Source of the DNA: a virus
Taxonomy: Duplodnaviria; Caudoviricetes
Direction: 5' to 3' (one strand)
Length of the DNA: 64,000 nt
Virus record (IMG/VR): IMGVR_UViG_3300021091_000011
The notes beneath the pieces were generated by a model. It was not told the DNA's origin. It worked only from the letters and a program-made list of their open reading frames with translations, and did not search any database. Shown piece after piece: positions 14,043-64,000 of this stretch (positions are counted from its first letter, which is position 1; each line of letters opens with the position of its first letter). Position numbers and translations under genes: made by a program.

Positions 14043-14699
14043 ATGAACAAGATTTCTTCTCAAGACCGAAGCGCGCTGATTAAATTAGCCGCAAGTCTGC
14101 CGCTCGGCTCTGCCGAGCGCAGGGTGATCCTCGCCGGAATCGGATACCGTTGGCTACCCGAGAACATTCGCGGGACATCGCCAAATGTCCCTTCTGAAAA
14201 CACGGACCTCGAAATCTGGACCTATGAAGTCGCCGGAAAGCCCTACGCCATCGCGTATCAGGGCAAGTCTAGCAAGCCGCTGTTTTACTCGTTGTTCCGA
14301 AGTGAAGAACAACGCCGGAACACGATTCAAAATGCAATCAATAGCCGCAAGTCGGCTATTGAAAGCAAAGCGTTGCGACGCAAAGAGCGTAGTGAGTATC
14401 AGCACACGCTCAAAGTGGGCGACATCCTCTACTCTAGTTGGGGATACGACCAAACCAACGTCGACTTCTACGAAGTCGTAGGCGTCAGCGGCAAAGCCGT
14501 CGCCATTCGTGAGATCGAACAGCGCGTGGTCGAAGGCAATGACTTTACAGAGAGGGTCGCCCCCATGCCGCGAAAGTATATCGGCCCCGTGCTAAAGAAA
14601 ATCCCGCGCGATAACTTCGTGCGCCTGAATAGTTTTTCAATTGCTCGGCTTTGGGACGGCAAGCCGAAGACGCAATCCGGCCCATACGGAGGCCACTAA
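14043..14699 (+). CDS. Leader-tagged protein with a common phage domain (SWGYDQTNVDFYEV)
   Basis: Starts MNKISSQDRSALIKLAASLPLGSAERRVILAG; C-terminal GDILYSSWGYDQTNVDFYEVV. Confidence 0.8.
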   Translation: MNKISSQDRSALIKLAASLPLGSAERRVILAGIGYRWLPENIRGTSPNVPSENTDLEIWTYEVAGKPYAIAYQGKSSKPLFYSLFRSEEQRRNTIQNAINSRKSAIESKALRRKERSEYQHTLKVGDILYSSWGYDQTNVDFYEVVGVSGKAVAIREIEQRVVEGNDFTERVAPMPRKYIGPVLKKIPRDNFVRLNSFSIARLWDGKPKTQSGPYGGH

Positions 14700-14748
14700 G
14701 TCCTTTTACTTAGCCTATCACGCCAACCGTAGGCAGGAGACCGATTAC

Positions 14749-15126
14749 ATGAACAAGATTTCTTCGCAAGACCGAAGCGCGCTGATCAAGTTGGCATCAA
14801 GTCTGCCCGCAGGCGACGAAACCCGTCGCGCGATTCTCGCAGGCTTGACCAAACTCGCCGCCCCCTACAAGCACGACAGCACCACCAGCGGTGGTAAGCG
14901 TTGCCGCAATCAATCCTGCGGCGGCGTCGGCGCACCGGGCAAAGGTTTATCCGAGTACGACCTGCTCGCAAACTACGGCGATCACGTCGGCACCGACCAC
15001 GATCCCCAAAAGAATATGGCGGGCTATATGCGTTGGTGGCGTGAAAACCAAGGTCAACACAAAGACCGCACCGTGAGCCCCACGGGTGCAGGCAACGAGA
15101 CTTTCAATCCTCAAAAGAAGAAGTAA
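14749..15126 (+). CDS. Leader-tagged small protein
   Basis: GCAGGAG RBS; MNKISSQDRSALIKLASSLPAGDETRRAILAGLTKLAA followed by an unrelated ~90-aa domain. Confidence 0.75.
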   Translation: MNKISSQDRSALIKLASSLPAGDETRRAILAGLTKLAAPYKHDSTTSGGKRCRNQSCGGVGAPGKGLSEYDLLANYGDHVGTDHDPQKNMAGYMRWWRENQGQHKDRTVSPTGAGNETFNPQKKK

Positions 15127-15269
15127 GTAAGTCTCCCCCCCTAGCCCTTAGAAAAGCCCTCTCGCTCGCGCAAGAGGGGCTTTTTTTATGCCCAAAAAGC
15201 GTATGATCACGCTATGCCTAGCAACACCGTCAGACTGATTCTCGGCGATAGCCTTGTCAAACTCAAAGA
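15061..15269. repeat. 209/210-bp direct repeat, copy 1
   Basis: Near-identical to 16599-16808; contains the 3' end of the 14749 gene, a terminator and the first 19 codons of the methyltransferase. Confidence 0.92.
15152..15187 (+). terminator. Rho-independent terminator
   Basis: AGCCCTCT-loop-AGAGGGGCT followed by T7. Confidence 0.8.
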
Positions 15270-15303
15270 TTTCTTAATCCGGCTATACCAATCTAACGCT
15301 TAG
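15214..15303 (+). pseudogene. Truncated start of the methyltransferase N-half
   Basis: MPSNTVRLILGDSLVKLKD is identical to the 16753 protein, then diverges and stops. Confidence 0.8.
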
Positions 15304-15325
15304 ATTATCTTGAAGGTGTATAGAC

Positions 15326-16441
15326 ATGAGCATGATTTCGCGGGTTGCGCAGAGATTCTTGCAGGCAGACGCAGTCAAAATTCATTGGTGGTTTCTTGAC
15401 GCGCATGAGGACCCGACCGTCAAACGTGCCGCAGAACGGCTATGGGGTTCCGTCGGTTCCGGGCTGGCTGAGATTGCCCCCATAAATGCGAGACTGCGGG
15501 CAATGAAACCCGAGGACGCGCACACGCCCAACGGTTTTCAGACGGTGCGCGCCGACGTGAGTCTCGTTACAAGTCCGCAAGTAGAGGGCGTCGCTTTGCA
15601 CTTGGATTTTTCTTTGGACGGCCGGACGGTCCTGTTCAACTCCAAGTTGAGAGTCAATCACCCGAAGTTTGCGGCTTTGCATGGTAAGAAAGCAACGCCG
15701 GCCAAGATTCTGTCAATTCTCTTTGCGGACTTCACGCAAAAGAAAGCCGAGTCCAATGCGTTTCAAGACGAACTCGACGCGGAATATGCACGGGTTCGGG
15801 CAAACTTTCAGACGCAAGCCGAGGACTTCGCCAAGTTTCTAGCCTTCCAGATTCCCACACTTCGGTCCAACGTCCCGGCGATTACCGGGAGTGTCAAGTC
15901 CGTCACGGCTTCCGAGAATGGCTTTTCGGTCGTGTCGGAGTTCAAGACCGCCACGGGCAAGCCTTATCAGATAGGGTGTGACGTCCGAAACGGAACGTTG
16001 CAAATCACACGTTCTGACGGTAAGCCCGGGTCTAAGTTCTCGATAGACTCCGGGGACACACGTTCAGTCGGCAACGCCGTCCATCATGTTTTGAGTGTGG
16101 CCCGTGGCATTGCCAGTAGTGAGAGTCAGGCGTCGGACAAGGTGACGGCTCTGATTCAAGCCACGCGGACGGAAAAGGGCGGGCGAAACCGTAAGGTTTC
16201 GTTTATTCCTGGGAAGACCCCGCGTTGGGACGTTCGACCGGACACGCCGAAGTCTTTGGACCATTACGGTCCTGACGGTTGGGACGAAGACGCGTGGACG
16301 GAAGAATACGCGGAGCCGATTGAGACGGCGGTGCTCGCCGAGTTAGACGCCGCTTTTGGACGCGGTATGTTCCACATCGACGTAGAAGAGAACGGTGATT
16401 TCACCGTTTACGCGACTCCGGCTGGTGCCCGACTGTTCTAG
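15326..16441 (+). CDS. Hypothetical protein with an N-terminal RVAQRFLQA tag, lying between the 209-bp direct repeats
   Basis: 371-aa ORF starting MSMISRVAQRFLQAD. Confidence 0.75.
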   Translation: MSMISRVAQRFLQADAVKIHWWFLDAHEDPTVKRAAERLWGSVGSGLAEIAPINARLRAMKPEDAHTPNGFQTVRADVSLVTSPQVEGVALHLDFSLDGRTVLFNSKLRVNHPKFAALHGKKATPAKILSILFADFTQKKAESNAFQDELDAEYARVRANFQTQAEDFAKFLAFQIPTLRSNVPAITGSVKSVTASENGFSVVSEFKTATGKPYQIGCDVRNGTLQITRSDGKPGSKFSIDSGDTRSVGNAVHHVLSVARGIASSESQASDKVTALIQATRTEKGGRNRKVSFIPGKTPRWDVRPDTPKSLDHYGPDGWDEDAWTEEYAEPIETAVLAELDAAFGRGMFHIDVEENGDFTVYATPAGARLF

Positions 16442-20953: not shown

Positions 20954-21348
20954 CTATATACGCCGTCGATTGAGGCTATTCCCCCATGGGTTTGGATCAG
21001 TTGTCTGAGGATTTCATGCGGCACATAGGCGTAGACGGTGTCCGTCGGGTCGTCTGAGTTTTCAGCGTAGGTTTGGATCAAGTCGTCAGGTTGATTGGGG
21101 AAGCCTAACTCATAATGAGTCCACGGCCCATGGTCCTTGCGGGGTCGGCAGTAGTGCGTTGCGCTGGCCCTTACGGAGACGGAGAACCCATCTTTGCAAG
21201 TGACCCGACCTTGATATAGGCCCAAATCTAAGGCCGTGTGCAGCGCAACTTGAGCGAGCGTCTTACCCTTGGCGTCGATCAGATCGAGTGAGCCCTGAGC
21301 GTTAGGCTTGATGCTCGTCGCGTCTTGAAACGGTGGGGGCAGTTTCAC
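20950..21348 (-). CDS. LPxPF-domain paralog fused to a different globular phage domain
   Basis: MKLPPPFQDATSIKPN...ALDL plus CKDGFSVSVRASATHYCRPR...ELGFP...YAE...PTDTVYAYVP. Confidence 0.8.
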   Translation of the reverse strand: MKLPPPFQDATSIKPNAQGSLDLIDAKGKTLAQVALHTALDLGLYQGRVTCKDGFSVSVRASATHYCRPRKDHGPWTHYELGFPNQPDDLIQTYAENSDDPTDTVYAYVPHEILRQLIQTHGGIASIDGVYR

Positions 21349-21575
21349 GGGCTTCTCCCACCGTCACCTTCGGACTGCTCATCACCGTAACCGCGTCCGT
21401 CACCGTAGCCACGTCCGTCACCGTAACCGTGGCCGTAGTCTTTTGTGCTCAACTCAAAGGCCGTGGTCAACGGGATTCGCGCCAACGGCTTGCCCTTGGC
21501 ATCGGTCAGGCTGATCGTCCCGTCGGGATTAGGCTTGAGGTTAGTCGCGGACTGAAACGGATGTGGTAGGTTCAT
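21345..21575 (-). CDS. LPxPF-domain paralog with a Gly-rich tail
   Basis: MNLPHPFQSATNLKPNPDG...TAFEL plus (GYGDGR)n. Confidence 0.8.
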   Translation of the reverse strand: MNLPHPFQSATNLKPNPDGTISLTDAKGKPLARIPLTTAFELSTKDYGHGYGDGRGYGDGRGYGDEQSEGDGGRSP

Positions 21576-21925
21576 TTGGGAACCTTGCCTCCGGAGCCGT
21601 TGCCGATTCCAAATGGGTCGTATCCGGCACCTGAGTTGCCATCAGCGAAGCGGCATTTAGCACCTAAAGCGTCGCTGTAGCCGTAGTTCAGCGAAGCGAA
21701 CAAAATGCCGCCGCCGAAAGGCATGATTTCAGATATGTTGGTCTTGTCGAGTAGCGAGTAGGCCGTGTTCAACGGCACGCGGGCAATCGGGAGGTCATTT
21801 TCGGTGGTCAGGTCGATTGTCCCATCGGCGTTTACGCGAATCCAGCGCACGTCTTGAAACGGACGTGGCAACGGCGACCGACTATGTGCAGGGTAGTGGA
21901 CGTTGTCTGAGATGTAACCGTTCAT
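21572..21925 (-). CDS. Divergent LPxPF-domain paralog
   Basis: SPLPRPFQDVRWIRVNADGTIDLTTENDLPIARVPLNTAYSL. Confidence 0.75.
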   Translation of the reverse strand: MNGYISDNVHYPAHSRSPLPRPFQDVRWIRVNADGTIDLTTENDLPIARVPLNTAYSLLDKTNISEIMPFGGGILFASLNYGYSDALGAKCRFADGNSGAGYDPFGIGNGSGGKVPK

Positions 21926-22248
21926 GGGGACTTGCCTTTGCCGCTTATGTAGCCTTGGCCGTAAGCGACTCCGATTCCGAATCCTTCGCCGTAGCCGATT
22001 CCGAATCCATCACCCGAACCGTCTCCGTGATCTTTGCCGTAAGTGCCGTAACCGAAATCTCCATCGCCGCTGCCATCGTTGCTTGGCTTGAAGTCGCACT
22101 CATCCTTGTCACCGAGCGGCGACAACTCAAAAGCCGTGGGCATCGAGATTCTTGCGAGCGGCTTCCCGCTCGCGTCGATTAGGTCGATTGAGCCGTCGAG
22201 ATTAGGTTTGAGACCCGTCGCGGACTGAAACGGTGGGGGCAGTTTCAC
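21922..22248 (-). CDS. LPxPF-domain paralog with a Gly/Asp-rich tail
   Basis: MKLPPPFQSATGLKPNLDG...TAFEL plus GSGDGDFGYG repeats. Confidence 0.8.
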   Translation of the reverse strand: MKLPPPFQSATGLKPNLDGSIDLIDASGKPLARISMPTAFELSPLGDKDECDFKPSNDGSGDGDFGYGTYGKDHGDGSGDGFGIGYGEGFGIGVAYGQGYISGKGKSP

Positions 22249-22604
22249 GGGCTTCTCCCATTAGCCCTATGGGAACGCTTGCCGTAACCGTCACCGTCAC
22301 CGTGACCGTCACCGTAACAACCGATACCGCGACCGTGACCGTCACCGCGACCGTTGCCGCGACCGTCACCGTAACAACCGTAGCCGTAACCGTCACCGTA
22401 GCCGAGGCCGTAACCGTCGCTGTAGCCGAGGCCGTAACCGTGACCGTCACCGGAACCGTAGCCTGCGGCCTCGGGACTTAGATCAAAAGCCGTGGTCAAC
22501 GGGATTCGCGCCAACGGCTTGCCCTTGGCATCGGTCAGGCTAACCGTCCCGTCGGCATTGGGCTTGATGCTAGATGCGTCTTGGAACGGATGGGGCAGTT
22601 TCAC
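22245..22604 (-). CDS. LPxPF-domain paralog with a long GYGDG tail
   Basis: GTG start at 22604 after AGGAG: MKLPHPFQDASSIKPNADG...TAFDL plus (GYG/GDG)n. Confidence 0.8.
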   Translation of the reverse strand: MKLPHPFQDASSIKPNADGTVSLTDAKGKPLARIPLTTAFDLSPEAAGYGSGDGHGYGLGYSDGYGLGYGDGYGYGCYGDGRGNGRGDGHGRGIGCYGDGHGDGDGYGKRSHRANGRSP

Positions 22605-23907: not shown

Positions 23908-23928
23908 TTGCTACTCCTGCTACGAATT

Positions 23929-24159
23929 TCAAGTTCCTTCGACGTAACCTTGCTTGGTCAGGTCATCGATCCAAGCGCCGAAAATCGCGCGAGTGACCGA
24001 ACCGTAAAGCGGCTGACCATCCGACCAGCCTGCGGCCTCGACCGTGTGGTTCTCACCTGCGACGGGCATCACCACGCCTCGCCATGACTTTCGATACTCG
24101 CAAGTCACGAGAACGGCCAAGACCTTCCCATGAAGTGCGATATGTGCGACGTGCTTCAT
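23929..24159 (-). CDS. Hypothetical protein
   Basis: GGAG RBS; first gene after motif copy 5. Confidence 0.65.
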   Translation of the reverse strand: MKHVAHIALHGKVLAVLVTCEYRKSWRGVVMPVAGENHTVEAAGWSDGQPLYGSVTRAIFGAWIDDLTKQGYVEGT

Positions 24160-25172: not shown

Positions 25173-25176
25173 ATTT

Positions 25177-45023: not shown

Positions 45024-45557
45024 ATGAACAAGCCGTCACCTATCCGTGTAGCAAGTCGCTATCTAAACGCCAGCCTCACGCTCGCCTTCGTCGGCAACGT
45101 CGGGGCCAAGAGCACTAAGATTCAGGACATTGGCGAAAAGGCCGCTGATGAACTCAAAGCGTTAGTCGGTGAAGCCGAAGCCGAAGCCTTGATTCGCAAC
45201 AAGTTGGCTCGGGACAAAGGCTTTTTCTTCCACGTCACGATTATTTCACCGCCCGAAGTGAAAGATATCGTGAACCGAATGGCCGCAGATAAAGCCATGA
45301 GCAAGTCCAAGGCATCGGACGAGTTCAAGGCCGAAGTCGAAGCGTTCGGCCTTACGGATAGCGGCTTGAAGTCACTCGGCTTGGGCAAGGCCGAGAAGGG
45401 CAGCGACGTGGCTTATTTCGCCGTTCTCGATTGGCCCGACGCTCAAAAACTGCGCGCCAAGTTCGGCTTGAGTGATTTCGATTTCCACACGACGATTGGT
45501 TTTGTTAAGGCCGACGTTCACGGCGTTCGCAAGAATCGATCTACTCTGATTCGCTAA
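45024..45557 (+). CDS. 2H phosphoesterase with an N-terminal RVASRYLNA tag
   Basis: Two HxT motifs: FFFHVTIISP and DFHTTIGF. Confidence 0.8.
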   Translation: MNKPSPIRVASRYLNASLTLAFVGNVGAKSTKIQDIGEKAADELKALVGEAEAEALIRNKLARDKGFFFHVTIISPPEVKDIVNRMAADKAMSKSKASDEFKAEVEAFGLTDSGLKSLGLGKAEKGSDVAYFAVLDWPDAQKLRAKFGLSDFDFHTTIGFVKADVHGVRKNRSTLIR

Positions 45558-45600
45558 CACGGCTATCGCCGTGTGATTGTTACACGACAGGGGACTTTCG

Positions 45601-46185
45601 ATGCGTAAGTTGAGTTCTGCTGATCGTTCGGCCCTGATCAAGTTGGCTTCCAGTCTTCCGTCTGGTTCGCCCGAGAGAAAGGCGATTCTCGCCGGACTTC
45701 AGGGTTCAAGCAAGAAGGCTTCTGGTGATGTTAACATTTCGGGTAAGCACATCACCGCTGCAGGGTACACCTACACGCCGAACGAGCTTCCGGTCTCGGA
45801 GATCAACCCCTCCAAGATCCCCAGTCGAACGGCCCGAGAGTACCAAAAGCGACTCCTCGTCGATCTCAAGAGGAAGTTCCCCTACAATGAGATCCGGCTT
45901 GACATGTTGGGGTTCATCACAGGCTCCCCCTTCACCTATATCAAGTTCAACGGTCTCGGGACCCGCCTGGACCTCGGGATGTGGTTCGACCAGAAGCCCC
46001 AGGACGTCTGGGTGCTCAGGCTCCACATTTCGTGGGGAAGCCACTACGAAAGCGGGAACTACAAGGCCATCGACATTCCTTGGGCTGGCGACCTCGACGC
46101 GATCTACGCAAAGGTCAAGAAGGCGTCAGTCACCCTCGTCGAGTTGGGGCTCTCGAAGATCGAGGAGGCCAAGGCCAGGCCATAA
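45601..46185 (+). CDS. Leader-tagged protein carrying a recently captured domain
   Basis: MRKLSSADRSALIKLASSLPSGSPERKAILAGLQGSSKKASGDVNISGKHI, then an unrelated domain with strongly C/G-ending codons. Confidence 0.8.
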   Translation: MRKLSSADRSALIKLASSLPSGSPERKAILAGLQGSSKKASGDVNISGKHITAAGYTYTPNELPVSEINPSKIPSRTAREYQKRLLVDLKRKFPYNEIRLDMLGFITGSPFTYIKFNGLGTRLDLGMWFDQKPQDVWVLRLHISWGSHYESGNYKAIDIPWAGDLDAIYAKVKKASVTLVELGLSKIEEAKARP

Positions 46186-46314: not shown

Positions 46315-47244
46315 GTGAAAAATAAGTCGATAGTGCTCGTTACTCTGACGCTCGCCTGCTCGCATCCGGTCGCCCGCGACGAGCCCGCGCCTCTCCTCAA
46401 CCCGTCTGCCGCGCCGCCCCCGACGCTGCGGACGCTCAAGATTACTTCCGAATGTGCGGACCCCATCTGGATTCAACAGGAGAACCACGCGGGTGCTCCT
46501 GCGCTCACGAAACTGACCAAGGGCACGTCAACTTCATTTAGTATCCCCGACGAAGGCTTGCCGTCTACGCGCTACTGGGCAAAGACGGGCTGCGACGCCA
46601 CCGGAAATAGCTGCGCGGTTGGACAGTCCTCGCCGCCTTGCCCCGCTGCTGGATGCGCTCCTCCGGTGGACAGCAAGTTGGAGGCAACGTGGGGCTGCAC
46701 GCTGCCAGAGGCGCAAAAGGAGCAATGCGCCAAGACGGATCAAGGACCACACGTCAAGAATACATGGTGGAACGCGAGTGCCGTTGACGGCTTCACGCTG
46801 CCCTTCCTCGTTGCGGTCAGCGGCGCATCCTCAGACGCCTGTGCGCCTGTCAACTGCGCCATGCTGGACCAGAACAAGTGTCCCGCGTCGGAATCCCTGC
46901 CGCCCGCCTACCCAGGTGGGGTGGATCTGCGTGTGCAGGGCGGTGCGGGGTGCTTCTCGCCATGCACGGCGCTCACCTATCCCGGCTTTGGCGGTAAAGG
47001 CATCCAACCGCCGAGCGACCCTCGCGCTGCCGCGTACTGCTGCCCGACGCCGCCTGTGTCGCCCGCACAATGCTCTAGTGGCCCTGCGGCGACGACGAAA
47101 TACGTCGAGGCTATCCACAAAATGTGCGCGGACACGACCTACGGCTATGCCTATGACGACGCGCTAGGTCTGCGTCAATGCGACCCAACAGTTGAACTTC
47201 AGCTTATTTTCTGTCCCGGTATTCCGGCAGTAGCGACGCCGTGA
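46315..47244 (+). CDS. Thaumatin-like (GH64-TLP superfamily) lipoprotein
   Basis: GTG start MKNKSIVLVTLTLA-C (lipobox-like); YWAKTGC, PPVDSKLEAT, WNASAVDGFTLP, GCFSPC, YCCP, YGYAYDD; many Cys. Confidence 0.78.
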   Translation: MKNKSIVLVTLTLACSHPVARDEPAPLLNPSAAPPPTLRTLKITSECADPIWIQQENHAGAPALTKLTKGTSTSFSIPDEGLPSTRYWAKTGCDATGNSCAVGQSSPPCPAAGCAPPVDSKLEATWGCTLPEAQKEQCAKTDQGPHVKNTWWNASAVDGFTLPFLVAVSGASSDACAPVNCAMLDQNKCPASESLPPAYPGGVDLRVQGGAGCFSPCTALTYPGFGGKGIQPPSDPRAAAYCCPTPPVSPAQCSSGPAATTKYVEAIHKMCADTTYGYAYDDALGLRQCDPTVELQLIFCPGIPAVATP

Positions 47245-47393
47245 TGCGCGGCGACGCCGAGGTGTCCGGCAAAGCCAAATGCTTCGGCAACGCCCGCATC
47301 GGTGGCACGGCTATTATCCTCGGTGGCGAATGGAACGGAAGCGAGGGTGAGGTCACTTCAGGTACTTGGCTGGCTCCGGGCGTTCCGGGCTGA
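47244..47393 (+). pseudogene. 3' remnant of a hexapeptide-repeat gene
   Basis: MRGDAEVSGKAKCFGNARIGGTAIILGGEWNGSEGEVTSGTWLAPGVPG is near-identical to the last ~49 aa of the 60738-62105 protein. Confidence 0.85.
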
Positions 47394-47435
47394 TTCCCTA
47401 GTTTTGACGACGCCTAACAAGAAGGTTTGACCCCC

Positions 47436-47978
47436 ATGCGTAAGTTGAGTTCAAGCGACCGTTCGGCCCTGATTCGGCTTGCTTATGCCCGACCTGATCT
47501 TCGTCCCGCTCTTCTGCCCCTCTTGAAGAAGGCGAGTAACTTCCCCCGCGTCGTGAAGGAAGTCGAAGAGGACTACAAGCGCAAGGCAATAACGGTCAGA
47601 GAAAAGAACGAACTACTCGCCGCCATTGAGGACGCGGAGACTGAAGAACAAGCCATGGGGTTAGTAAGGAACCACCGTAAGGGGCGTGTTGCAAAAGAGG
47701 CTTCCGCATCCCCGTCTAACCCGCGCATCGTGCGGTTGCGCGATGGGAAGTTCGGCATCGAGTTCCACACCAACCGAGGCGTGTTCGTCTGGACGCAGAA
47801 CAAGAGTTTCACCCACTCATTCAAACTCGACCGCGAAGATGACCGAGATCGTTCTCCTTTGACTTACGATTCACCTACTGCGGCGCAATCGGGTATGAAA
47901 GAGGCTCTTTACGAAATCTATCGTTACCGACCAGGTGATGAAGACTTCGTGCGTGGGCACGAACCCGTGAAAGTTTAG
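47436..47978 (+). CDS. Leader-variant-tagged two-domain protein
   Basis: MRKLSSSDRSALIRLAYARPDLRPALLPLLKKAS; internal linker RKGRVAKEASAS. Confidence 0.75.
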   Translation: MRKLSSSDRSALIRLAYARPDLRPALLPLLKKASNFPRVVKEVEEDYKRKAITVREKNELLAAIEDAETEEQAMGLVRNHRKGRVAKEASASPSNPRIVRLRDGKFGIEFHTNRGVFVWTQNKSFTHSFKLDREDDRDRSPLTYDSPTAAQSGMKEALYEIYRYRPGDEDFVRGHEPVKV

Positions 47979-56012: not shown

Positions 56013-56725
56013 GCGCGAAGCACGATTGCCCCGATTGCGAAGGGTCGGGCATGGTCAGGGTGGGCGAGCCGGACGGCTTGCCGCCTAGATATAGGCGATG
56101 CGAGTGCGTGCTGCGCGAAGACCTATTGGCGAACGCCGACCGCGTGATGCCTGGCTTATCGGTCGCGCCAGCCGTATCCCGAAGCCCGCTTGCCGACAAG
56201 TGGAAGTCGAACCTAATGATCCACGCGCCTGAGCGGTGGTTCAGGTCGCATTTGCGGCACCTTGCGATTCGACGACCGCCCATTTGGGCAGGCCGTGTAG
56301 TATCTGACGCCGACTTGGTTACTTCATGGCTCGCCAGCGTCGCGCTAAAAGGCGACACCATCTTGGACCCTGATTCTCACGGCGTCAGCACCCAATACAT
56401 CACGCTGGCCGATTTAGTCGTGCCGCCCGATTTGCTCGTGATTCGCATGGGCGTCAAAGTCGCGCGTAACGTCGCGGCGAATGAGGTCTTGGCCGAAGCC
56501 ATCATGCTCCGTAAGCACTTGCAGAAACCGACGTGGGTTTGGGCGTTACCCGATTTCCCGCTCGCGCCAGGACATTTGTTCTGGTCCGATGAAGTGGGCC
56601 GAGTAATGTCTGATTTCTTGCAAATCGGCGCGGCGAATGACCAAGCACTTTCCGTAGAGCCTGAAGTCTCAAACAATCCCGTGCCGTCAACAAAAACCAC
56701 GTCGAAAAAGAGGTCGTTGCGGTGA
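56009..56725 (+). CDS. DnaC/IstB-like helicase loader with degenerate ATPase motifs
   Basis: CPDCEGSG...RRCEC zinc motif; PDLLVIRMG and EAIMLRKHLQKPTW align with the DLLILDDLG and R....KPT pattern; no GxxxxGKT; sits directly upstream of dnaB. Confidence 0.55.
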   Translation: MSAKHDCPDCEGSGMVRVGEPDGLPPRYRRCECVLREDLLANADRVMPGLSVAPAVSRSPLADKWKSNLMIHAPERWFRSHLRHLAIRRPPIWAGRVVSDADLVTSWLASVALKGDTILDPDSHGVSTQYITLADLVVPPDLLVIRMGVKVARNVAANEVLAEAIMLRKHLQKPTWVWALPDFPLAPGHLFWSDEVGRVMSDFLQIGAANDQALSVEPEVSNNPVPSTKTTSKKRSLR

Positions 56726-59484
56726 AAACCCTGCTTAGGTCTATAATCAGGGATCGCAACGATGACGCTGATCTTCTATTTCGCAACTATCAAGCGTTGC
56801 AGGACGCCAATCTACCGTGTGATATCGCAGAGGACACGGTTATTTGGAAGTTCGTGCAGGACTTCTCGGGACAGTATCATCACGTTCCCGATGCGGCGAC
56901 CGTTCGCGGGCATTTCGCAAGCACGCATCAACTTGAGGTCGTGGACCGTGTGGACAACATCATGGTCCAGACGGCACGCTATCAAGGCGACTTCCTGCGC
57001 TATCTCGAAGGGCGCATTGAAGATCGCCGCGTTCGCACGGTGACCGAAATCTTCCGCGAAGCCGGACGCATTATCGAAGTCGGTATCACGGTCAAAGAGG
57101 GCAAGGAAGAAAAACTCATCCGTGGCCCCATGCAAGCCATTCGCTACGTCATGGACCGTGGGCACGAAATCGTCACGCCGAGCACGGGCGTCAAACTCAC
57201 AGGTGACGTGACCGCTGACGGCGACGCTTTCGTTCGGGAAATCGAGCGCATCGAAGCCGATCCTTTGGCGGGCATCGGGCAGTTTTCGGGCATTGACCAA
57301 ATGGACCGTGCGCTGCGCGGTGCAAAGCGTGGCGAGTTGTGGACCCACACGGCTTTCACGGGCGGCATGAAGTCTACGCTCGCGCTGAATTGGCTGTATA
57401 ACCAAGCGGTCTACTACAAGCACTCGAACATCCTATACTCGTTGGAAATGCCCTATCCGCAGGTGCGCCGCATCTTGTACGCGATGCACAGTTTCCACGA
57501 AAAGTTTGACGACGTTCGCAAGAACTTGGGCATCAAGCGATGCGTGCCGTACCAGAAAATCCGTGACGGCGAGATGACCCCCGCCGAGCGCGAGTTCATG
57601 GTTCAGTATGTAGTGAAGGACTTTAACGACCCCGCTAATCAATATGGGTCGATTCACATTGAGGTCGCGGACCCTGACAAGTCTGATTTCACGGTCATCG
57701 ACCTGCGAAACAAAGCCGAGTTGCTGCGCGCAAAAGACCCCTCGATTTCAATGATCGTCGTCGACCACGCAGGTTTGATGGCCCCGCGCAATCGTCAGCC
57801 GTCTACTACTGAGCGATTGAACGAGGTCGTGCGTGACCTAAAGCGGTTGTCCATGAGTTTCGACCGTGGCGCGGGCATCGCCGTACTAAACCTGTTTCAG
57901 ATTTCGCGTGAAGGCTACAAAGCCGCCGAAAAAGGCGGCGGTTCATACAACCTCACGCATTTATCTTACGCCAACGAATGTTGTAAGTATTCGGAATCAT
58001 TGATGTTTTCTCGCGGCCTATTGCCTATCTGCGAATCGGTCGTTGGGGATAGGGTTTGGTCGGCTTCAGGTTGGAAGCCCGTGTTGGCGGTCTTCCCGAA
58101 GGGTTCCCGACCGACGTGGCTTTTGACGACGAATCGTGGCGCTGAGTTTGAATGCACCGAGAACCATCGTGTTCGCGTGTTGCGCGACGAGCGGGTTGAT
58201 TGGGAGTACATCGGCAACCTGCGGGCGGGCGACTACGTTCTCGGGACGCGCGGGGATTACCCCTTTGCGACGGACGTTCCTAAGTTGGATACGCCGTGGG
58301 GTTCTACTACGCACATGACGCTAGACTTGGCCTATCTTTTGGGCGCGTGGCATGGTGACGGTCGTGTGCGTCCGAACAGCGTAGGGTTCACGGGCAATCG
58401 TTCTGAGCAAGCCCTAGAGAATCGAATCGCAACCACACTTGAGCGTGTTCACGGCGAGAAGAAGGTTTCCCGCTATCATGCCAAGAGCCGTGCGGGTTCC
58501 TTCGACCTTGAACTCTACGACACCGCTTTCAAGCATTGGTTTGAAGGCATCGCCGGAGACAGGGGCGTGGCAATCCCTCGATTGATCCTGCAAAGCCCTA
58601 AGTCGTTCGTCTTGGCTTTCCTTCAGGGGTTGTTCGATACCGACGGCTGGATCACGAATCAAGGCGTGTTGGGCGTCAAAATGGCCCGCAAGTCTGAGGG
58701 GCTACTGCGCGGTATTCAGACGCTATTCACGGCCCTTGGCTATGATTCTTCTCTGAGCGCACGGTCAGATACGCTTGCGACCACGGGCAAGGCGTATGGC
58801 AGCGTCACGCTCCGACTGCGAGGGCGTGAATCTCTTATCAAGTTCGCGTCGGACATTCATTTCACGGAAAAGGCCAAAGCCGAAAGGCTGGATAGCCTCG
58901 CCGCTTGCCCGACGAAAGACAAGCGCGTGTATCCGGTTTCAAATGCCTTTATGCGCGTGTACCGCGCTGTTTTCCCGCGCCAGCATTCTAAGAAAGGTGA
59001 GAATCAAGACCGCCAGCCTTTGTGGAAGTCGGTCGGCGTCGCCAAAAGTAAGCGTCTGGTATCTCACGACGACATTGAGGCATTGTTGCAAGCCGCAAAT
59101 GCGCGCGGAGTCAACGTCCCCGATGTTGATCTCTTGGCAACCGTGCTGCGGCTTCATGTAGTGAAGATCGTTTCGTGTTCTCCGACGGGGCGCGAAGAAC
59201 AGGTTTGGGATATCGAAGTCGATGGGGACCACGAGTATCAAACGGGTCCGCTTCTCTCACACAACTGCGAGCGGTCGTCAGACATTGTGACCGCCGCTTG
59301 GATTGACGAAGAACTGCGAAGCAAAAACGTCCTGCGGCTTCAATGCCTCAAGGCCCGTGACGATAAGCCCTTCGATCCGTTTTACGCAGGCGTCGTGTTC
59401 GATTGCCGCCGCATACACACGGCGTATGATATCACCATCGAGCGCGCTCAACAGGCGGGTAACGAGATCGATCTTGGCGTCTGA
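56722..59484 (+). CDS. dnaB: DnaB-like replicative helicase with an intein
   Basis: GELWTHTAFTGGMKST, YSLEM, IVVDHAGLM, QISREG, LSYANE|CERSSDIV, KARD. Confidence 0.9.
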   Translation: MKTLLRSIIRDRNDDADLLFRNYQALQDANLPCDIAEDTVIWKFVQDFSGQYHHVPDAATVRGHFASTHQLEVVDRVDNIMVQTARYQGDFLRYLEGRIEDRRVRTVTEIFREAGRIIEVGITVKEGKEEKLIRGPMQAIRYVMDRGHEIVTPSTGVKLTGDVTADGDAFVREIERIEADPLAGIGQFSGIDQMDRALRGAKRGELWTHTAFTGGMKSTLALNWLYNQAVYYKHSNILYSLEMPYPQVRRILYAMHSFHEKFDDVRKNLGIKRCVPYQKIRDGEMTPAEREFMVQYVVKDFNDPANQYGSIHIEVADPDKSDFTVIDLRNKAELLRAKDPSISMIVVDHAGLMAPRNRQPSTTERLNEVVRDLKRLSMSFDRGAGIAVLNLFQISREGYKAAEKGGGSYNLTHLSYANECCKYSESLMFSRGLLPICESVVGDRVWSASGWKPVLAVFPKGSRPTWLLTTNRGAEFECTENHRVRVLRDERVDWEYIGNLRAGDYVLGTRGDYPFATDVPKLDTPWGSTTHMTLDLAYLLGAWHGDGRVRPNSVGFTGNRSEQALENRIATTLERVHGEKKVSRYHAKSRAGSFDLELYDTAFKHWFEGIAGDRGVAIPRLILQSPKSFVLAFLQGLFDTDGWITNQGVLGVKMARKSEGLLRGIQTLFTALGYDSSLSARSDTLATTGKAYGSVTLRLRGRESLIKFASDIHFTEKAKAERLDSLAACPTKDKRVYPVSNAFMRVYRAVFPRQHSKKGENQDRQPLWKSVGVAKSKRLVSHDDIEALLQAANARGVNVPDVDLLATVLRLHVVKIVSCSPTGREEQVWDIEVDGDHEYQTGPLLSHNCERSSDIVTAAWIDEELRSKNVLRLQCLKARDDKPFDPFYAGVVFDCRRIHTAYDITIERAQQAGNEIDLGV
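57979..59265 (+). mobile_element. Intein (429 aa) with a LAGLIDADG endonuclease in DnaB
   Basis: Starts CCKYSES; block B CTENH; LAYLLGAWHGDG and FLQGLFDTDG; ends LSHN followed by Cys. Confidence 0.93.
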
Positions 59485-60737: not shown

Positions 60738-62105
60738 ATGGCGATGAAGCCATACCCTCTCTTCAGAAATGGACTTGCGATGAAACTCACGCCCAACCTC
60801 AAAAAGTTCTTTGATTTGCTTAAGACGCTCGATGAAGTTGCGTTTTCGATTAAAACCGATGACATAATCAAAGAAGCCTCTAAAAAATGTGATTTCGATC
60901 ATCTTCCTGAGAGATGGGATGATTATCTTGATAAGCAAGAGAAATATTTTTATGATGATGGGGATGGATATGAACTTATTGATAGTCTTTTAGTTGAGAA
61001 ACCTCAATTGAAAGCCCTCTCTAACGCTATCCATGATCCCGATGAAGACCCCGATTATACTGTTTTGGATTGGATCTATGATAACGCAGATGATTTTAGT
61101 GGGTTTTACATCCCTAATTTATTTGATAGGCTAAGGAGAGACTCGAAACTCGAAGAGGAGTATGAGGGTTATCTCTCTGATGCTATGAGAGATTGTCACC
61201 AGGACGCAGAAGAAAGTAGAGACCCTTACGGCTATCGTGGTCTGAGCCGTTCTATGTTCTATGCTTCGCGTAAAGTCGCCGCTTCTGACCGTTCGGCGCT
61301 GATCCGCTTGGCCTCTAGTCTGCCCGCTGGTTCGCCTGAGCGTAGGGCTATTTTGACCGGACTTCAAGCGTCAAGCAAGAAGGCTTCTGGCGGGGTCTAC
61401 AAAGGCAATTATAACATTCCTGGCAAACACATCTTGGGTCCAAACGCCGATGTGTCCGAAAACGCCATGGTAGCCCAAGACGCCCTGGTGTGGGACAACG
61501 CCAAGGTGTTCAACGGAGCCTTTGTGTTCGACAATGCTAAGGTGTTCGGAAATGCCAAGGTATACGGCGACGCCTGGGTTGGCGGTAGAGCCCATGTGTA
61601 CGGCAAAGCCGAGGTGTATGACATAGCCAAAGTGTTCGGCAACGTCAAGGTGTACGGCAACGTCAAGGTGTACGGCAAAGCCAAGGTGCGCGACAAAGCC
61701 AAGGTGTCCGGAAGAGCCCAGGTGTCTGACAACGCCGAGGTGTACGGCACGGCTCATGTGGGAGAAAGAGCCTATGTGGAGGGCAACGCCAAGGTGTACG
61801 GCGACGCCTGGGTGTCCGGTGACGCCTATGTGTTCGGCAACGCCGAGGTGAGCGGCAACGCCAAGGTGCTCGGCAACGCCGGGGTGTACGACAACGCCAT
61901 TGTGGGCGGCGACGCCCAGGTGTACGGCAATGCCGTGGTGTACGGCAACGCCGAGGTGAGAGGCAAAGCCGAGGTGTACGGCGAAGCCAAATGCTTCGGC
62001 AAAGCCCGAATCGGTGGTAATGCGATTATCCTCGGCGGCGAATGGGACGGAAGCGAGGGCGCGGTCACTTCCGGTACTTGGCGAGGTCCAGGCGTTCCTG
62101 CCTGA
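60738..62105 (+). CDS. Chimeric protein: AT-rich acidic domain, internal leader, hexapeptide (LbH) repeat domain
   Basis: Residues from about 60780 to 61210 are encoded in visibly AT-rich DNA; internal SRKVAASDRSALIRLASSLPAGSPERRAILTGLQASSKKAS; (VYGNAK)n repeats. Confidence 0.8.
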   Translation: MAMKPYPLFRNGLAMKLTPNLKKFFDLLKTLDEVAFSIKTDDIIKEASKKCDFDHLPERWDDYLDKQEKYFYDDGDGYELIDSLLVEKPQLKALSNAIHDPDEDPDYTVLDWIYDNADDFSGFYIPNLFDRLRRDSKLEEEYEGYLSDAMRDCHQDAEESRDPYGYRGLSRSMFYASRKVAASDRSALIRLASSLPAGSPERRAILTGLQASSKKASGGVYKGNYNIPGKHILGPNADVSENAMVAQDALVWDNAKVFNGAFVFDNAKVFGNAKVYGDAWVGGRAHVYGKAEVYDIAKVFGNVKVYGNVKVYGKAKVRDKAKVSGRAQVSDNAEVYGTAHVGERAYVEGNAKVYGDAWVSGDAYVFGNAEVSGNAKVLGNAGVYDNAIVGGDAQVYGNAVVYGNAEVRGKAEVYGEAKCFGKARIGGNAIILGGEWDGSEGAVTSGTWRGPGVPA

Positions 62106-62143
62106 ATCCCTAGCCTAGAACAATCAAGAAGGTTTGATCTCCC

Positions 62144-62311
62144 ATGCGTACTTTGACCGCCTCTGACCGTTCTGCTTTGATCAAGTTGGCCGCAAGCCTG
62201 CCTGCTGGATCACCCGAGCGCAAGGCTTGGACGAGGCGACGAAGCATGATGTCATCGCGGGCGTTGAAGAGCGATCCGCGTTCGGCGCTGAGAAATACGG
62301 CCAAGTGCTGA
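62144..62311 (+). pseudogene. Leader stub out of frame with the downstream gene
   Basis: MRTLTASDRSALIKLAASLPAGSPERKA, then the frame runs into an unnatural tail. Confidence 0.7.
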
Positions 62312-62454
62312 TGAGCCGTGACGGGCGTGATTCGGTGAACGATGCGGTGCAGGAGTTGATTGACGCTTTGCAATACGTTCAAGCAGCCCGCATGAAAGAA
62401 CAGGACTTAGGGATCATCAAGCCTTACCTGGCGTTGCTGACCCGATTGGTCTGA
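62227..62454 (+). CDS. Conserved small phage protein (KYG..L...GRD...DA..E..D motif)
   Basis: EKYGQVLMSRDGRDSVNDAVQELIDALQY; TTG start overlapping the leader stub. Confidence 0.6.
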   Translation: MDEATKHDVIAGVEERSAFGAEKYGQVLMSRDGRDSVNDAVQELIDALQYVQAARMKEQDLGIIKPYLALLTRLV

Positions 62455-62532
62455 TCGGTCTGACGGTAGACCGATTATCACCCGCTAGAAGGCAAATAGC
62501 GCGAAGTCGCTAAACCTCTTCTAGGGTTTTGT

Positions 62533-62961
62533 GTGAACATACGAGTGAGTGCCAAGCGCGTAGCCATCGCCCGCATGGAGGTTGAGGGGCTTATCGCTGA
62601 CAATACTGTCGGAAAAGTGCTGCGTCTCTATGCAGGTTGCTCGGACGTCTATATTGACGCGAAGGGCTACACGCTCAAGATTACGGCAGTCAAAGCCGAG
62701 TCGATTTGGGATGCTTATCAGGCCGAACTCGAAGAAGAGGGCTTGTTTCTCGGTTTGATGGGCCGGAAACCCCGAGGCAATCTTCATGAGATGATTCTTC
62801 AGAGGCTAACGAAACGCACCGTGTTCGCGTTGACGGAGGCTTTTGGCTTGAGGTTTCGTTTAGGCGAAGTGAACTTTGCGGATTTCGAGCGCACGCACAA
62901 CCTACCTTTCGAGGCCGAATTCAAGCCCGAGGATTTAGGCCGCATCCTTTTGACGTTTTGA
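62533..62961 (+). CDS. Hypothetical protein
   Basis: 142-aa ORF with ordinary composition. Confidence 0.6.
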   Translation: MNIRVSAKRVAIARMEVEGLIADNTVGKVLRLYAGCSDVYIDAKGYTLKITAVKAESIWDAYQAELEEEGLFLGLMGRKPRGNLHEMILQRLTKRTVFALTEAFGLRFRLGEVNFADFERTHNLPFEAEFKPEDLGRILLTF

Positions 62962-63108
62962 TCGGGGAAAAATGCCCTATCAAAGTTCACGGGCATCTTT
63001 TCAACATGGATTTGATTACCATGCGTAAGTTGATTTCTGCCGATCTTATCGACGAACTTCGCCGTTTGCGATTCAAAGTTCGTTTCGACAAGGCCGACAA
63101 GTCTATCG

Positions 63109-63681
63109 TTATTTCTTGAGCAAGTAACGCTTCACGATTTCGTCCGAGTAAACCAAGTCACTCGGCCAATGCCAACCGCCCATCATTCGCGTTTGGCTTA
63201 CCCAATCCACGGCCTCTACTAGCGCAGCCCTCTTCGCAGGGTTCGCCCTAGCAGCGATGCCTGCTACGACGCCCGCCTGAATCGTATGGCCCGAAGGATA
63301 CGAAGGGCTGTGCGCCGTCGTAGACTCCATCGTCGTAAAGTCCGTGTGCGCTAATAAGGGCATGACCTGAAAAGGTCGCGCACGGTTGTAGTGCCATTTG
63401 ATGCGGACGATGACGGGCAATAAGTCACGGACGACCATGCGTGCAGCGACCCTGAACTCTAGCGTCGCGTCGGCACCTAAAGCCTCGTACACGGTCACCA
63501 AAGGGTCCGTGTCTATCGCCATGATCGAATCACGATAAGCGTCACGTTCGCTCATCGCTTTAAGCATGGCGTCAGCCTCAACCGAAAAATCAGGCGGGTC
63601 GATCAGCGGCACCCAACGCGGCACGGTTGGGCACTTCGCCATTTGACGAGCCTGTTCATCGGTGAGGCTTCCGTAGATCAT
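63109..63681 (-). CDS. PAP2 / vanadium-haloperoxidase-type phosphatase
   Basis: KWHYNRARP (KxxxxxxRP), SYPSGH, TRMMGGWHWPSD (SRxxxxxHxxxD). Confidence 0.88.
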   Translation of the reverse strand: MIYGSLTDEQARQMAKCPTVPRWVPLIDPPDFSVEADAMLKAMSERDAYRDSIMAIDTDPLVTVYEALGADATLEFRVAARMVVRDLLPVIVRIKWHYNRARPFQVMPLLAHTDFTTMESTTAHSPSYPSGHTIQAGVVAGIAARANPAKRAALVEAVDWVSQTRMMGGWHWPSDLVYSDEIVKRYLLKK

Positions 63682-64000
63682 GCTTTAATACCAAGGCCCT
63701 CTGAGGTCTTCCCTGCCGCCTTGATAGCGTCCTCTAGCTTGTTGAGCGCGGCCTTCACCGTCTGGAACTCGGCCCTTGCAACACCCGTCCCGGCGCTCCG
63801 TTGGGCTTCTACAATGAGGTCGGTGCAGGCGTATACCTTGTCGATGGGGGTATCCCCTTCGTAGCGAAGGGTGCCCGCAACGAGGGCCATTCCGGATACC
63901 CCGTCCGTGTTCGCCAAGTCTGAACGGGGTCCCTGAAGTCCAGCGAGAATAGCCCGGCGTTCTTCCGAACCAGCCGGAAGGCTAGAGGCCAAGCGGATCA
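63678..64000 (-). CDS. Leader-tagged hypothetical protein; start lies beyond the right edge
   Basis: The reverse complement of the window end reads ..IRLASSLPAGSEERRAILAGLQG.. followed by an unrelated domain. Confidence 0.75.
   Translation of the reverse strand, partial: IRLASSLPAGSEERRAILAGLQGPRSDLANTDGVSGMALVAGTLRYEGDTPIDKVYACTDLIVEAQRSAGTGVARAEFQTVKAALNKLEDAIKAAGKTSEGLGIKA

What the first reader, a model, noticed from the sequence alone, without database searches (positions are those of the whole stretch)
14043..64000. A portable ~30-aa leader attached to unrelated proteins: candidate virion-cargo tagging system
Seen: the peptide (S/A)xDRSALI(K/R)LA(S/A)SLPxGSxER(R/K)AILAGL starts ORFs at 14043, 14749, 45601 and 62144 and appears in the minus-strand ORF at the right edge (about 63920-64000). 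It also sits internally at 61266-61389, and a variant (DRSALIRLAYARPDLRPALLPLLKKAS) starts 47436. The downstream domains are unrelated, and several copies end in K-x-A(S) (KKAS, KLAA). The DNA of the copies is synonymously diverged, so conservation is at the peptide level. Established: T4 internal proteins share an N-terminal capsid-targeting sequence removed by the gp21 protease, and phiKZ gp175 processes many head proteins at a short motif. Inference: this leader routes diverse cargo into the head for injection and may be cleaved at K-x-A. I do not recognise it as a named family.
Basis: partly seen in the sequence, partly recalled or inferred. Interest (0 to 1): 0.9.

Follow-up and report, generated by a model that had tools for sequence, protein, structure and literature searches.

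The report
Portable helical address tag in huge phages
A conserved 33-residue helix-loop-helix peptide is bolted onto dozens of unrelated small proteins in a lineage of uncultured huge phages; it behaves like an address label, most plausibly for loading cargo into the capsid, and no database or paper describes it.

Summary
Seven copies of M-[RNK]-[KT]-[LI]-[ST]-[AS]-x-DRSALI[KR]LASSLPxGSxER[RK]AILAGL lie at the stated coordinates: five at N-termini, one internal, one diverged. Synonymous sites are near saturation (pS 0.47-0.77, dN/dS 0.06-0.29), so selection acts on the peptide.

A 34-position profile finds 1,379 protein clusters, with tags at N-termini, inside proteins and at C-termini, up to three per protein. 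No Pfam family, solved structure or paper covers it. It is confined to huge-phage contigs; one 297-kb relative carries 24 copies. AlphaFold2 predicts a confident helix-loop-helix (pLDDT 87).

New circumstantial support for the capsid-cargo reading:
- A K-[KT]-A-[SA] word follows the tag, is about 8-fold enriched in tagged proteins, and a related G-K-K-A word recurs six times in the relative's presumed scaffold.
- A tagged gene sits directly after the portal gene.
- Tagged genes share a promoter-like motif with head-module genes (Fisher p about 1e-4).
- One cargo domain wears different leaders in different phage lineages.

The destination and the cleavage are still unproven. The tag-capsid protein fold test gave no verdict, and many tagged genes lie among replication genes.

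First readers of this scan noted the same tag in other windows of this genome.

The parts
14043..14141 (+). Tag copy 1, residues 1-33 of ORF 14043-14699. Its cargo is a phrog_37844 domain (residues 58-212).
   Evidence: tag profile E 5e-17
14749..14862 (+). Tag copy 2 plus the following K-L-A-A word, at the N-terminus of ORF 14749-15126. Cargo has no family match.
45601..45723 (+). Tag copy 3 plus linker SSKKAS, at the N-terminus of ORF 45601-46185. The protein has a second KKAS at residue 173.
47436..47537 (+). Variant tag (helix 1 conserved, helix 2 of the type PDLRPALLPLL, then KKAS) at the N-terminus of ORF 47436-47978. The same variant type is multi-copy in other huge-phage contigs.
61269..61385 (+). 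Internal tag copy plus SSKKAS linker, residues 178-216 of ORF 60738-62105. It lies between a 175-aa N-domain and a beta-solenoid (YdcK-repeat) domain. The position that is the initiator Met in N-terminal copies is Ser here, as expected after a gene fusion.
62144..62230 (+). Truncated tag copy that ends after ERKA (ORF 62144-62311, 55 aa). The -1 frame continues into ORF 62227-62454, which is the C-terminal half of a phrog_7609 domain.
63906..64000 (-). Tag copy cut by the window edge. It is the N-terminus of the 118-aa protein P0058, whose ORF ends at 63678.
47230..47435 (+). Remnant of a second tag-solenoid gene: the last ~49 codons plus the spacer. It is about 87% identical in DNA to 61942-62143.
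13983..13997 (+). Promoter-like motif (GTTAA-N5-CTATC) 46 nt before the tagged gene at 14043.
   Evidence: family version
45553..45567 (+). Promoter-like motif (GCTAA-N5-CTATC) 34 nt before the tagged gene at 45601. The same motif lies at 39650-39664, before the giant 1769-aa ORF.

Best explanation
The ~33-residue peptide is a portable helix-loop-helix address tag. Helix 1 is DRSALIRLASSL, the loop is P-x-G-S, and helix 2 is xERRAILAGL. It is usually followed by x-K-[T/A/K]-A-[S/A].

The phage lineage attaches the tag to many unrelated, fast-turning-over accessory proteins so that they all bind one phage-encoded receptor. The most likely receptor is the inside of the assembling prohead (scaffold core or inner capsid surface). 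The tagged proteins would then be enclosed and later delivered with the DNA, and the K-x-A|S word would let the maturation protease trim the tag. This is the logic of the T4 capsid-targeting sequence, carried out by a different and much larger module.

Shown: the module, its portability, purifying selection on the peptide, its restriction to phages, the predicted hairpin, its link with the K-x-A-S word, and its link with a promoter-like motif shared with head-module genes.

Inferred: the receptor, virion location and cleavage.
For: - Portability: there are seven copies in the window on unrelated cargo. The profile finds 1,379 clusters at E<=1e-3 and 329 at E<=1e-10. The 220 copies in the best 150 proteins split into 130 N-terminal, 64 internal and 26 C-terminal.
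- Selection acts on the peptide: dN/dS is 0.06-0.29 with near-saturated synonymous sites.
- Fold: AlphaFold2 gives helices 6-17 and 24-37, mean pLDDT 87, about 95 in the core.
- Not a known domain: no Pfam family among 150 members, no PDB sequence relative, no paper holds the peptide.
- Phage-restricted and lineage-specific: the 297-kb relative G007 has 24 copies on 18 ORFs. Weak variants occur in LR745208.1, G010 and G011. Seven other large phage contigs have none. Among 185,579 prokaryote species genomes only three short MAG contigs match.
- Cleavage-like word: the post-tag consensus is x-K-[TAS]-A-[AS]. K[KTQ]A[SA] is seen 8 times against 1.0 expected in G007 tagged proteins, and 13 against 7.8 in all other proteins. 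The window shows the same pattern. The acidic repeat protein just upstream of the G007 capsid gene, presumably the scaffold, carries six G-K-K-A words.
- Head context: in G007 the gene directly after the portal is tagged and contains three G-L-K-T-A-S words.
- Co-regulation: GGTAG-N6-CTAT[CAG] lies 25-45 nt upstream of 6 of 15 tagged genes and 12 of 271 others (Fisher 9e-5). Four of those 12 are in the head module, and no identified replication gene has it.
- Address-like behaviour: homologues of the phrog_37844 cargo carry the canonical tag here, a LIRLAxxxPELRxxLLPLLKK variant in other huge phages, an RVAARF-type leader in others, and no leader in ~40-kb phages.
- Precedent: T4 IPI-III and Alt carry N-terminal capsid-targeting propeptides that bind the prohead core and are removed by gp21. 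SPN3US propeptides are proposed to do the same (PMC7411985).
Against: - There is no direct evidence that any tagged protein is in a virion or is cleaved. No cultured phage carries the tag.
- Many tagged genes lie among replication and recombination genes. A conserved three-tag ~700-aa protein is syntenic with clamp loader, RecD2-like helicase and RecA genes.
- The tag-capsid protein complex test gave no verdict.
- The G007 capsid protein, portal and scaffold-like protein carry no recognisable tag.
- The capsid-protein call rests on a sub-threshold Pfam hit. No protease was identified by sequence.
- Three of the seven window tags lack a following K-x-A word.
- The timing of the promoter-like motif is inferred from gene context only.
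Confidence: 0.4

Rival explanations
1. The tag is a homotypic sticker. The hairpins bind each other. Proteins with two or three tags separated by Lys/Glu-rich disordered spacers act as multivalent scaffolds, and single-tag proteins are clients of a phage-made assembly or condensate. That assembly could be a viral factory, or an inner body that may itself end up in the capsid.
For: Many family members have 2-3 tags separated by long K/E/D-rich low-complexity spacers (P0002, P0004, P0009). Among the best 150 proteins, 58 have two or more tags. A conserved three-tag protein sits among replication genes.
Against: AlphaFold2 of a natural two-tag protein (P0014) gives two independent hairpins with no confident packing, pTM 0.35. 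This is weak evidence. The model does not explain the linked K-x-A-S word or the lineage-specific swapping of leaders on one cargo.
Confidence: 0.17
2. The tag is an address for another phage-built destination inside the infected cell. Examples are a replication compartment, a membrane-associated factory, or an import gate of a nucleus-like shell.
For: Tagged genes are interspersed with replication and recombination genes. The tag works at either end of a protein, which suits a docking or import signal. Leaders are lineage-specific.
Against: No compartment-forming protein was identified here. The promoter-like motif is shared with head-module genes and not with replication genes. A tagged gene is embedded in the head operon.
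Confidence: 0.12
3. The tag is a minimal DNA-binding hairpin, helix-hairpin-helix-like, that tethers diverse proteins to phage or host DNA.
For: It has helix-loop-helix geometry with conserved basic residues (R9, K/R14, R26), and LPxGSxxxxAIL loosely resembles the HhH word LPGIGxxxAxxIL (my own reading). ParB-like and pentapeptide-repeat cargo are DNA-related.
Against: No HhH Pfam model hits at E<=1. The defining G-h-G hairpin is replaced by P-x-G-S, and the predicted loop is longer. A single 30-aa hairpin rarely binds DNA alone. The model does not explain the K-x-A-S linkage.
Confidence: 0.08
4. The tag is a recognition element for a chaperone or protease, that is, a degron or timing tag. It would control the stability of accessory proteins rather than their location.
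For: It is terminal, portable, short and helical, and it is linked with a protease-site-like word.
Against: Internal copies and multi-copy architectures are unusual for degrons. Strong conservation of both helices suggests a structured interface. Nothing here points to a specific unfoldase.
Confidence: 0.06

Closest known systems
T4 capsid-targeting sequence (CTS) of IPI-III and Alt, removed by the gp21 prohead protease
   Same: A short portable N-terminal peptide is shared by unrelated proteins and followed by a short protease-site-like word. The proposed logic is tag, load, then trim (PMC7411985).
   Different: There is no sequence similarity. The tag is 33 aa rather than about 10-20 aa. It is a predicted two-helix hairpin. 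It also occurs internally and at C-termini, up to three times per protein. It is on dozens of genes per genome. The candidate site is K-x-A|S rather than L/I-x-E. Nothing has been shown experimentally.
Propeptides of giant phage SPN3US / phiKZ-like head and ejection proteins
   Same: These are giant phages in which many head proteins carry removable propeptides proposed to target them to the prohead (PMC7411985).
   Different: Those propeptides are long (64-130 aa), differ from protein to protein and are cut at A-x-E. Here a single conserved 33-aa module is reused on many proteins.
P22-type scaffolding protein C-terminal helix-loop-helix coat-binding domain (from my own knowledge, not tested here)
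   Same: A basic helix-loop-helix hairpin of about 30 residues that docks a protein onto the inner capsid surface.
   Different: It is found once, at the C-terminus of the scaffold itself, and is not a tag spread over unrelated cargo. No sequence relation was found, and the PDB profile search was empty.
Polyvalent proteins of phages (Iyer et al. 2017, PMC5512222)
   Same: Multi-domain effector proteins predicted to be packaged in the capsid. ParB-like, GNAT and peptidase modules occur in both.
   Different: My term search of that paper found no mention of a linker or small helical tag module. Most tagged proteins here are small single-domain proteins, not polyvalent giants.
Encapsulin cargo-loading peptides and microcompartment encapsulation peptides (from my own knowledge)
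   Same: Short terminal peptides that address diverse cargo to the lumen of a shell. In encapsulins the shell has the HK97 fold.
   Different: Those are short extended or single-helix peptides in cellular systems. Here the module is a two-helix hairpin in phages, with multi-copy and internal placement.

Membership tests
T4-type capsid-targeting sequence | Short N-terminal propeptide shared by otherwise unrelated proteins | tested here: met
   Five of seven window copies and 130 of 220 family copies are N-terminal, on unrelated cargo. However, 90 of the 220 are internal or C-terminal.
T4-type capsid-targeting sequence | Immediately followed by a prohead-protease cleavage site and removed on maturation | tested here: inconclusive
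   The K-[KTA]-A-[SA] word follows the tag and is about 8-fold enriched in tagged proteins; a related G-K-K-A word recurs six times in a scaffold-like protein. Cleavage itself cannot be tested with these tools.
T4-type capsid-targeting sequence | Tagged proteins are present in the prohead or virion and bind the scaffold core | not testable with these tools
   No cultured phage carries the tag. The tag-capsid protein fold test gave no verdict.
T4-type capsid-targeting sequence | Sequence or length like the T4 CTS (about 10-20 aa) | tested here: not met
   The module is 33 aa, a two-helix hairpin. The tag sequence found no T4-like or other cultured phage by tblastn.
Helix-hairpin-helix (HhH) DNA-binding motif | G-h-G hairpin and a match to Pfam HhH models | tested here: not met
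   No HhH family at E<=1 in seven window proteins or at E<=1e-3 in 150 members. The loop is S-L-P-x-G-S.
Any curated protein family or solved structure | Significant profile or sequence match | tested here: not met
   Pfam, PHROGs on tagged proteins, PDB profile search, Foldseek against PDB and the ESM Atlas gave nothing that covers the tag.
Scaffolding-protein helix-loop-helix coat-binding domain (P22 type) | Helix-loop-helix of about 30 aa that binds the coat protein | tested here: inconclusive
   The hairpin is predicted with pLDDT 87. Binding to the candidate capsid protein gave no verdict. The G007 scaffold-like protein has no recognisable tag.

The most novel reading that the evidence does not exclude
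Several lineages of uncultured huge phages run a modular 'address-and-trim' system. One conserved 33-aa hairpin, paired with a K-x-A|S site, loads dozens of rapidly exchanged effector proteins per genome into the capsid for injection. Multi-tag Lys/Glu-rich proteins serve as internal scaffolds. Each lineage has its own tag dialect (canonical, LIRLAxxxPELR, RVAxRF) matched to its own capsid. New cargo is captured by recombination inside tagged genes.
Probability: 0.3. Interest if true: 0.85.

Novelty: new variant of a known kind. Interest (0 to 1): 0.72.

Why it matters
If the tag is a capsid address, it marks, by sequence alone, the injected protein arsenal of a large group of huge phages that nobody has cultured. 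That arsenal would amount to hundreds of protein families of unknown function, likely aimed at host takeover or counter-defence.

It would also give a compact, transferable loading signal for packaging foreign proteins into large capsids. And it would show cargo loading on a scale far beyond T4's four tagged proteins.

Even if the destination is different, the result stands on its own. A 33-aa module found in more than 1,300 protein clusters, under strong purifying selection and absent from Pfam, PDB and the literature, is a clear gap in protein-family annotation. It is also a handle for sorting huge-phage 'dark matter' into functional classes.

Tried and rejected
- Complex prediction of the G007 tag (45 aa) with the G007 candidate capsid protein (294 aa): score 0.00, no verdict. 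This is not evidence either way.
- AlphaFold2 of the natural two-tag protein P0014, to see whether tags pack on each other: two independent hairpins, pTM 0.35, uninformative.
- Foldseek of the tag model against PDB, and the ESM Atlas search: only generic helical hairpins, nothing significant.
- PDB profile search: only a chance 13-residue match to Ndi1, E 0.3.
- tblastn of the canonical and variant tags against 50,697 GenBank phage records: no useful hit.
- Pfam and PHROGs on the conserved three-tag protein and on the G007 protease and scaffold candidates: nothing. The ESM Atlas search on P0012 was also empty.
- No whole genome is held for this window, and ENA and JGI records could not be searched by handle. 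The window's own head module was therefore not examined, and the relative G007 was used instead.
- An RNA- or DNA-level element is rejected, because conservation is at the amino-acid level.
- Chance or low complexity is rejected, given profile E-values down to 1e-29 and 329 clusters below 1e-10.
- An assembly artefact as the cause of the 62144 frameshift is rejected, because two assemblies are identical there.
Full report
**1. The observation**

- It starts the ORFs at 14043, 14749, 45601 and 62144.
- It lies inside ORF 60738-62105, at residues 178-212.
- It begins the minus-strand ORF that runs off the right edge. The complete 118-aa protein, P0058, was recovered from the protein collection.
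- A diverged form starts ORF 47436. Its helix 1 is intact and its helix 2 is replaced by PDLRPALLPLL.

A profile built from family members scores the six canonical copies at E 5e-12 to 3e-19 and the 47436 variant at 1e-5.

The cargo parts are unrelated to each other in all-vs-all BLASTP. The only exception is a 20-residue linker (SSKKASG...GKHI) shared by the 45601 and 60738 proteins. The cargo includes:
- a phrog_37844 domain;
- a YdcK-type beta-solenoid;
- the C-terminal half of a phrog_7609 domain;
- four sequences with no family match.

The DNA of the copies differs mainly at synonymous positions, including AGC/TCG serine switches. Nei-Gojobori counts give pS 0.47-0.77 against pN 0.07-0.29, so dN/dS is 0.06-0.29. 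The conserved object is therefore the peptide, not a nucleic-acid element.

**2. What kind of genome this is**

- The window encodes an intein-bearing family-A DNA polymerase. Its best GenBank relative is LR745208.1, an uncultured 485-kb phage, at 49% identity.
- It also encodes an intein-bearing DnaB-type helicase, an SNF2 helicase and ThyX, and two giant ORFs of 3,281 and 1,769 aa.
- No whole genome is held for the window.
- A 297-kb IMG/VR contig, handle G007, is a moderately distant relative: polymerase 57%, helicases 65% and the giant ORFs 33-47% identical. I used it as a readable stand-in for the family.

**3. How far the module reaches**

A 34-position profile of the seven window copies was searched against 1.84 billion representative proteins. 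It finds 1,379 clusters at E<=1e-3 and 329 at E<=1e-10.
- In the best 150 proteins there are 220 copies: 130 N-terminal, 64 internal and 26 C-terminal. Of these proteins, 58 have two or three copies.
- The consensus is M-[RNK]-[KT]-[LI]-[TS]-[AS]-[SQ]-D-R-S-A-L-I-R-L-A-S-[ST]-L-P-x-G-S-x-E-R-[RK]-A-I-L-A-G-L, followed by x-K-[TAS]-A-[AS].
- Many internal copies still carry the initiator Met of the N-terminal form. This is what fusion of adjacent tagged genes would leave.
- C-terminal copies are shorter. They start at ALIRLA and are often preceded by G-K-K-A.

No known family covers it.
- No Pfam family covers the tag in any of the 150 proteins.
- Few of those proteins have any domain at all. 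Those found are beta-solenoid, pentapeptide repeats, GNAT and DUF2958. One member, P0021, shows a ParB-like DGHHR motif by eye.
- The PDB profile search, Foldseek and the ESM Atlas give nothing specific.
- No paper in the library contains the peptide.

The module is confined to phages and to particular lineages.
- G007 has 24 copies on 18 ORFs. Four other IMG/VR contigs have 6 to 20.
- LR745208.1 has nine weak copies.
- Two further large contigs, G010 and G011, have ten and five copies of the 47436-type variant.
- Seven other large phage contigs that do encode the phrog_37844 cargo have none.
- Among 185,579 prokaryote species genomes, only three short MAG contigs from one study match. They are probably mis-binned phage DNA.

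**4. Structure**

AlphaFold2, run on a 119-row alignment of tags, predicts helix 6-17, a six-residue loop (S-L-P-x-G-S) and helix 24-37. Mean pLDDT is 87, about 95 in the core. Such a small hairpin is unlikely to be a stand-alone domain and more likely completes its core on a partner.

**5. Evidence bearing on function**

(a) A short word travels with the tag.
- In the window, KLAA or KKAS directly follows four of the seven tags. The same pattern occurs once in 17.5 thousand residues of untagged proteins.
- In G007, K[KTQ]A[SA] is seen 8 times against 1.0 expected in tagged proteins. In all other proteins it is seen 13 times against 7.8 expected.
- In the best 150 proteins, [KR]-x-A lies within ten residues after half of the tags, against a background of 23%.

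(b) G007 has a recognisable head module.
- Large terminase at 122-2050.
- Portal at 2986-4707.
- A tagged 338-aa protein directly after the portal. It carries three G-L-K-T-A-S words.
- A CCA-enzyme polyprotein.
- An acidic repeat protein at 21055-22431. It looks like a scaffold and carries six G-K-K-A words, each before a basic amphipathic helix.
- A 294-aa candidate capsid protein at 23342-24226. The Pfam Phage_capsid hit (E 1e-4 to 1e-3) is below the curated cut-off.
- Repetition of the same word in a scaffold-like protein is what a maturation-protease site would look like. This is inference.

(c) A promoter-like motif, GGTAG-N6-CTAT[CAG], lies 25-45 nt upstream of start codons in G007.
- It precedes 6 of 15 tagged genes and 12 of 271 others (odds ratio 14, Fisher 9e-5).
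- Four of those 12 are in the head module. None of the identified replication genes has it.
- The window has a matching version, [GC]NTAA-N5-CTAT[CA], before 14043, 45601, 15326 and the giant ORF at 39703. The window sample is small, with 16 motif hits against about 10 in shuffles.

(d) The phrog_37844 cargo domain is widespread, with 305 IMG/VR loci. Its N-terminal extension changes with the lineage.
- Here it is the canonical tag.
- In two other huge-phage contigs it is the LIRLAxxxPELRxxLLPLLKK variant.
- In several contigs it is an RVAARF-type leader.
- In ~40-kb phages there is none.
- A constant cargo with lineage-specific leaders is how an address matched to a lineage-specific receptor should behave.

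**6. Evidence against, or missing**

- Nothing shows that a tagged protein is in a particle or is cut.
- Tagged genes are scattered. Several sit among RecD-like helicase, UvsX/RecA, clamp and clamp-loader genes.
- A conserved ~700-aa protein with three tags is syntenic with such genes in several contigs.
- The capsid, portal and scaffold candidates of G007 carry no recognisable tag.
- The single complex prediction allowed, G007 tag with G007 capsid candidate, gave no verdict.
- A natural two-tag protein folds as two independent hairpins, pTM 0.35. That neither supports nor excludes tag-tag binding.

**7. Best reading and rivals**

- I am about 97% sure that this is a real, selected, portable peptide module, and about 70% sure that it docks its carriers onto one common partner.
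- The prohead is the best-supported partner, at about 40%. This rests on the linked K-x-A-S word, the head-operon member, the shared promoter-like motif and the T4 and SPN3US precedents (PMC7411985).
- The rivals are listed with their tests in the Rival explanations section. They are a homotypic sticker building a condensate or inner body, an address to another intracellular phage structure, a minimal HhH-like DNA tether, and a stability tag.

**8. Comparison with known systems**

- The logic resembles the T4 capsid-targeting sequence, but the tag is not a member of that family. It shares no sequence with it and is two to three times longer. It is a two-helix hairpin. It is used at either end of a protein and internally, in up to three copies, and on dozens of genes per genome.
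- It resembles the P22 scaffold coat-binding hairpin in shape only. That comparison rests on my own knowledge.
- My term search of the phage polyvalent-protein survey found no mention of such a module (PMC5512222).

**9. Evolutionary dynamics seen in the window**

- The stretch 47230-47440 is about 87% identical in DNA to 61942-62150. That region is the end of the solenoid gene, the spacer and the start of the next tagged gene.
- The 45601 protein keeps the tag and the first ~20 residues of the solenoid protein's linker.
- A second tag-solenoid gene therefore had its body replaced by a new domain plus a thaumatin-like gene at 46270-47244.
- The 62144 copy is truncated and out of frame with its former cargo, identically in two assemblies.
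- Tagged genes thus appear to be sites of frequent recombination, fusion and decay.

**10. Verdict**

The module is undescribed. As a kind of system it is a new variant of capsid or compartment targeting peptides. First readers of this scan noted the same tag in other windows of this genome. Those notes were leads only. What I tested myself is listed under the earlier findings used.

Noticed in passing
window 15326-16441 (+) and 45024-45557 (+); also loci L005, L007, L008, L015: A second portable N-terminal leader of the form RVA-x-R-[FY]-L starts two unrelated window proteins: a 371-aa unknown and a 2H phosphoesterase. The same type of leader sits on phrog_37844 homologues in other phage contigs. 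It may be another address dialect.
   Followed up: partly
window 62144-62454 (+): The tag ORF stops being tag-like after ERKA. It overlaps, in the -1 frame, a 75-aa ORF that is only the C-terminal half of a phrog_7609 domain. JGI and Logan assemblies are identical here, so this is a decaying or frameshifted tagged gene rather than an assembly error.
   Followed up: partly
window 45601-47440 compared with 60738-62150: This is a paralogous tag-solenoid gene whose body was replaced by an unrelated domain plus a thaumatin-family gene (46270-47244). The last ~49 codons and the spacer survive at about 87% DNA identity.
   Followed up: yes
window 13983-13997, 15273-15287, 39650-39664, 45553-45567, 52437-52451; many sites in G007: A promoter-like motif (G007: GGTAG-N6-CTAT[CAG]; window: [GC]NTAA-N5-CTAT[CA]) lies 16-46 nt (window) or 25-45 nt (G007) before start codons of tagged genes, head-module genes and giant ORFs, but not before replication genes. 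It is probably one temporal promoter class.
   Followed up: partly
window 48622-52425 (-) and 56722-59484 (+): Both the family-A DNA polymerase and the DnaB-type helicase appear to be interrupted by inteins. The helicase has LAGLIDADG and intein-splicing Pfam hits. The G007 orthologues are shorter (926 and 492 aa) and lack the inserts.
   Followed up: partly
window 29809-39654 (+) and 39703-45012 (+): Two giant ORFs of 3,281 and 1,769 aa have no Pfam or PHROG match. Both are conserved in G007 at 33% and 47% identity. They are probably structural proteins.
   Followed up: no
family members P0006, P0010, P0012, P0019, P0021, P0031 (not in the window): Further short portable motifs accompany the tag in relatives: C-E-K-L-P-x-G-P-M-R-D-N-C-E-K, K-K-H-Q-F-T-S-E-D-N-P-N-P-K-G-N-D-K-D-G-D-G, E-E-A-R-K-K-Y-L-K-E-H-P-x-A-D-P, and Y-P-W-D-E-C-I...I-C-G-K-I-R. 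P0031 (199 aa) consists almost only of such motifs between two tags.
   Followed up: no
loci L130-L132 (MAG contigs RGPS01000140.1, RFZO01000033.1, RFZO01000031.1): The only tag matches in prokaryote species genomes are 15-18 kb contigs in MAGs of two different phyla from one study. They are most likely phage contigs binned by mistake.
   Followed up: no
window 52467-54350 (+): A 627-aa protein has a weak zinc-metallopeptidase signature near its C-terminus (Peptidase_Mx1, below cut-off) and is preceded by the promoter-like motif. It could be a polyvalent-protein-type peptidase.
   Followed up: no
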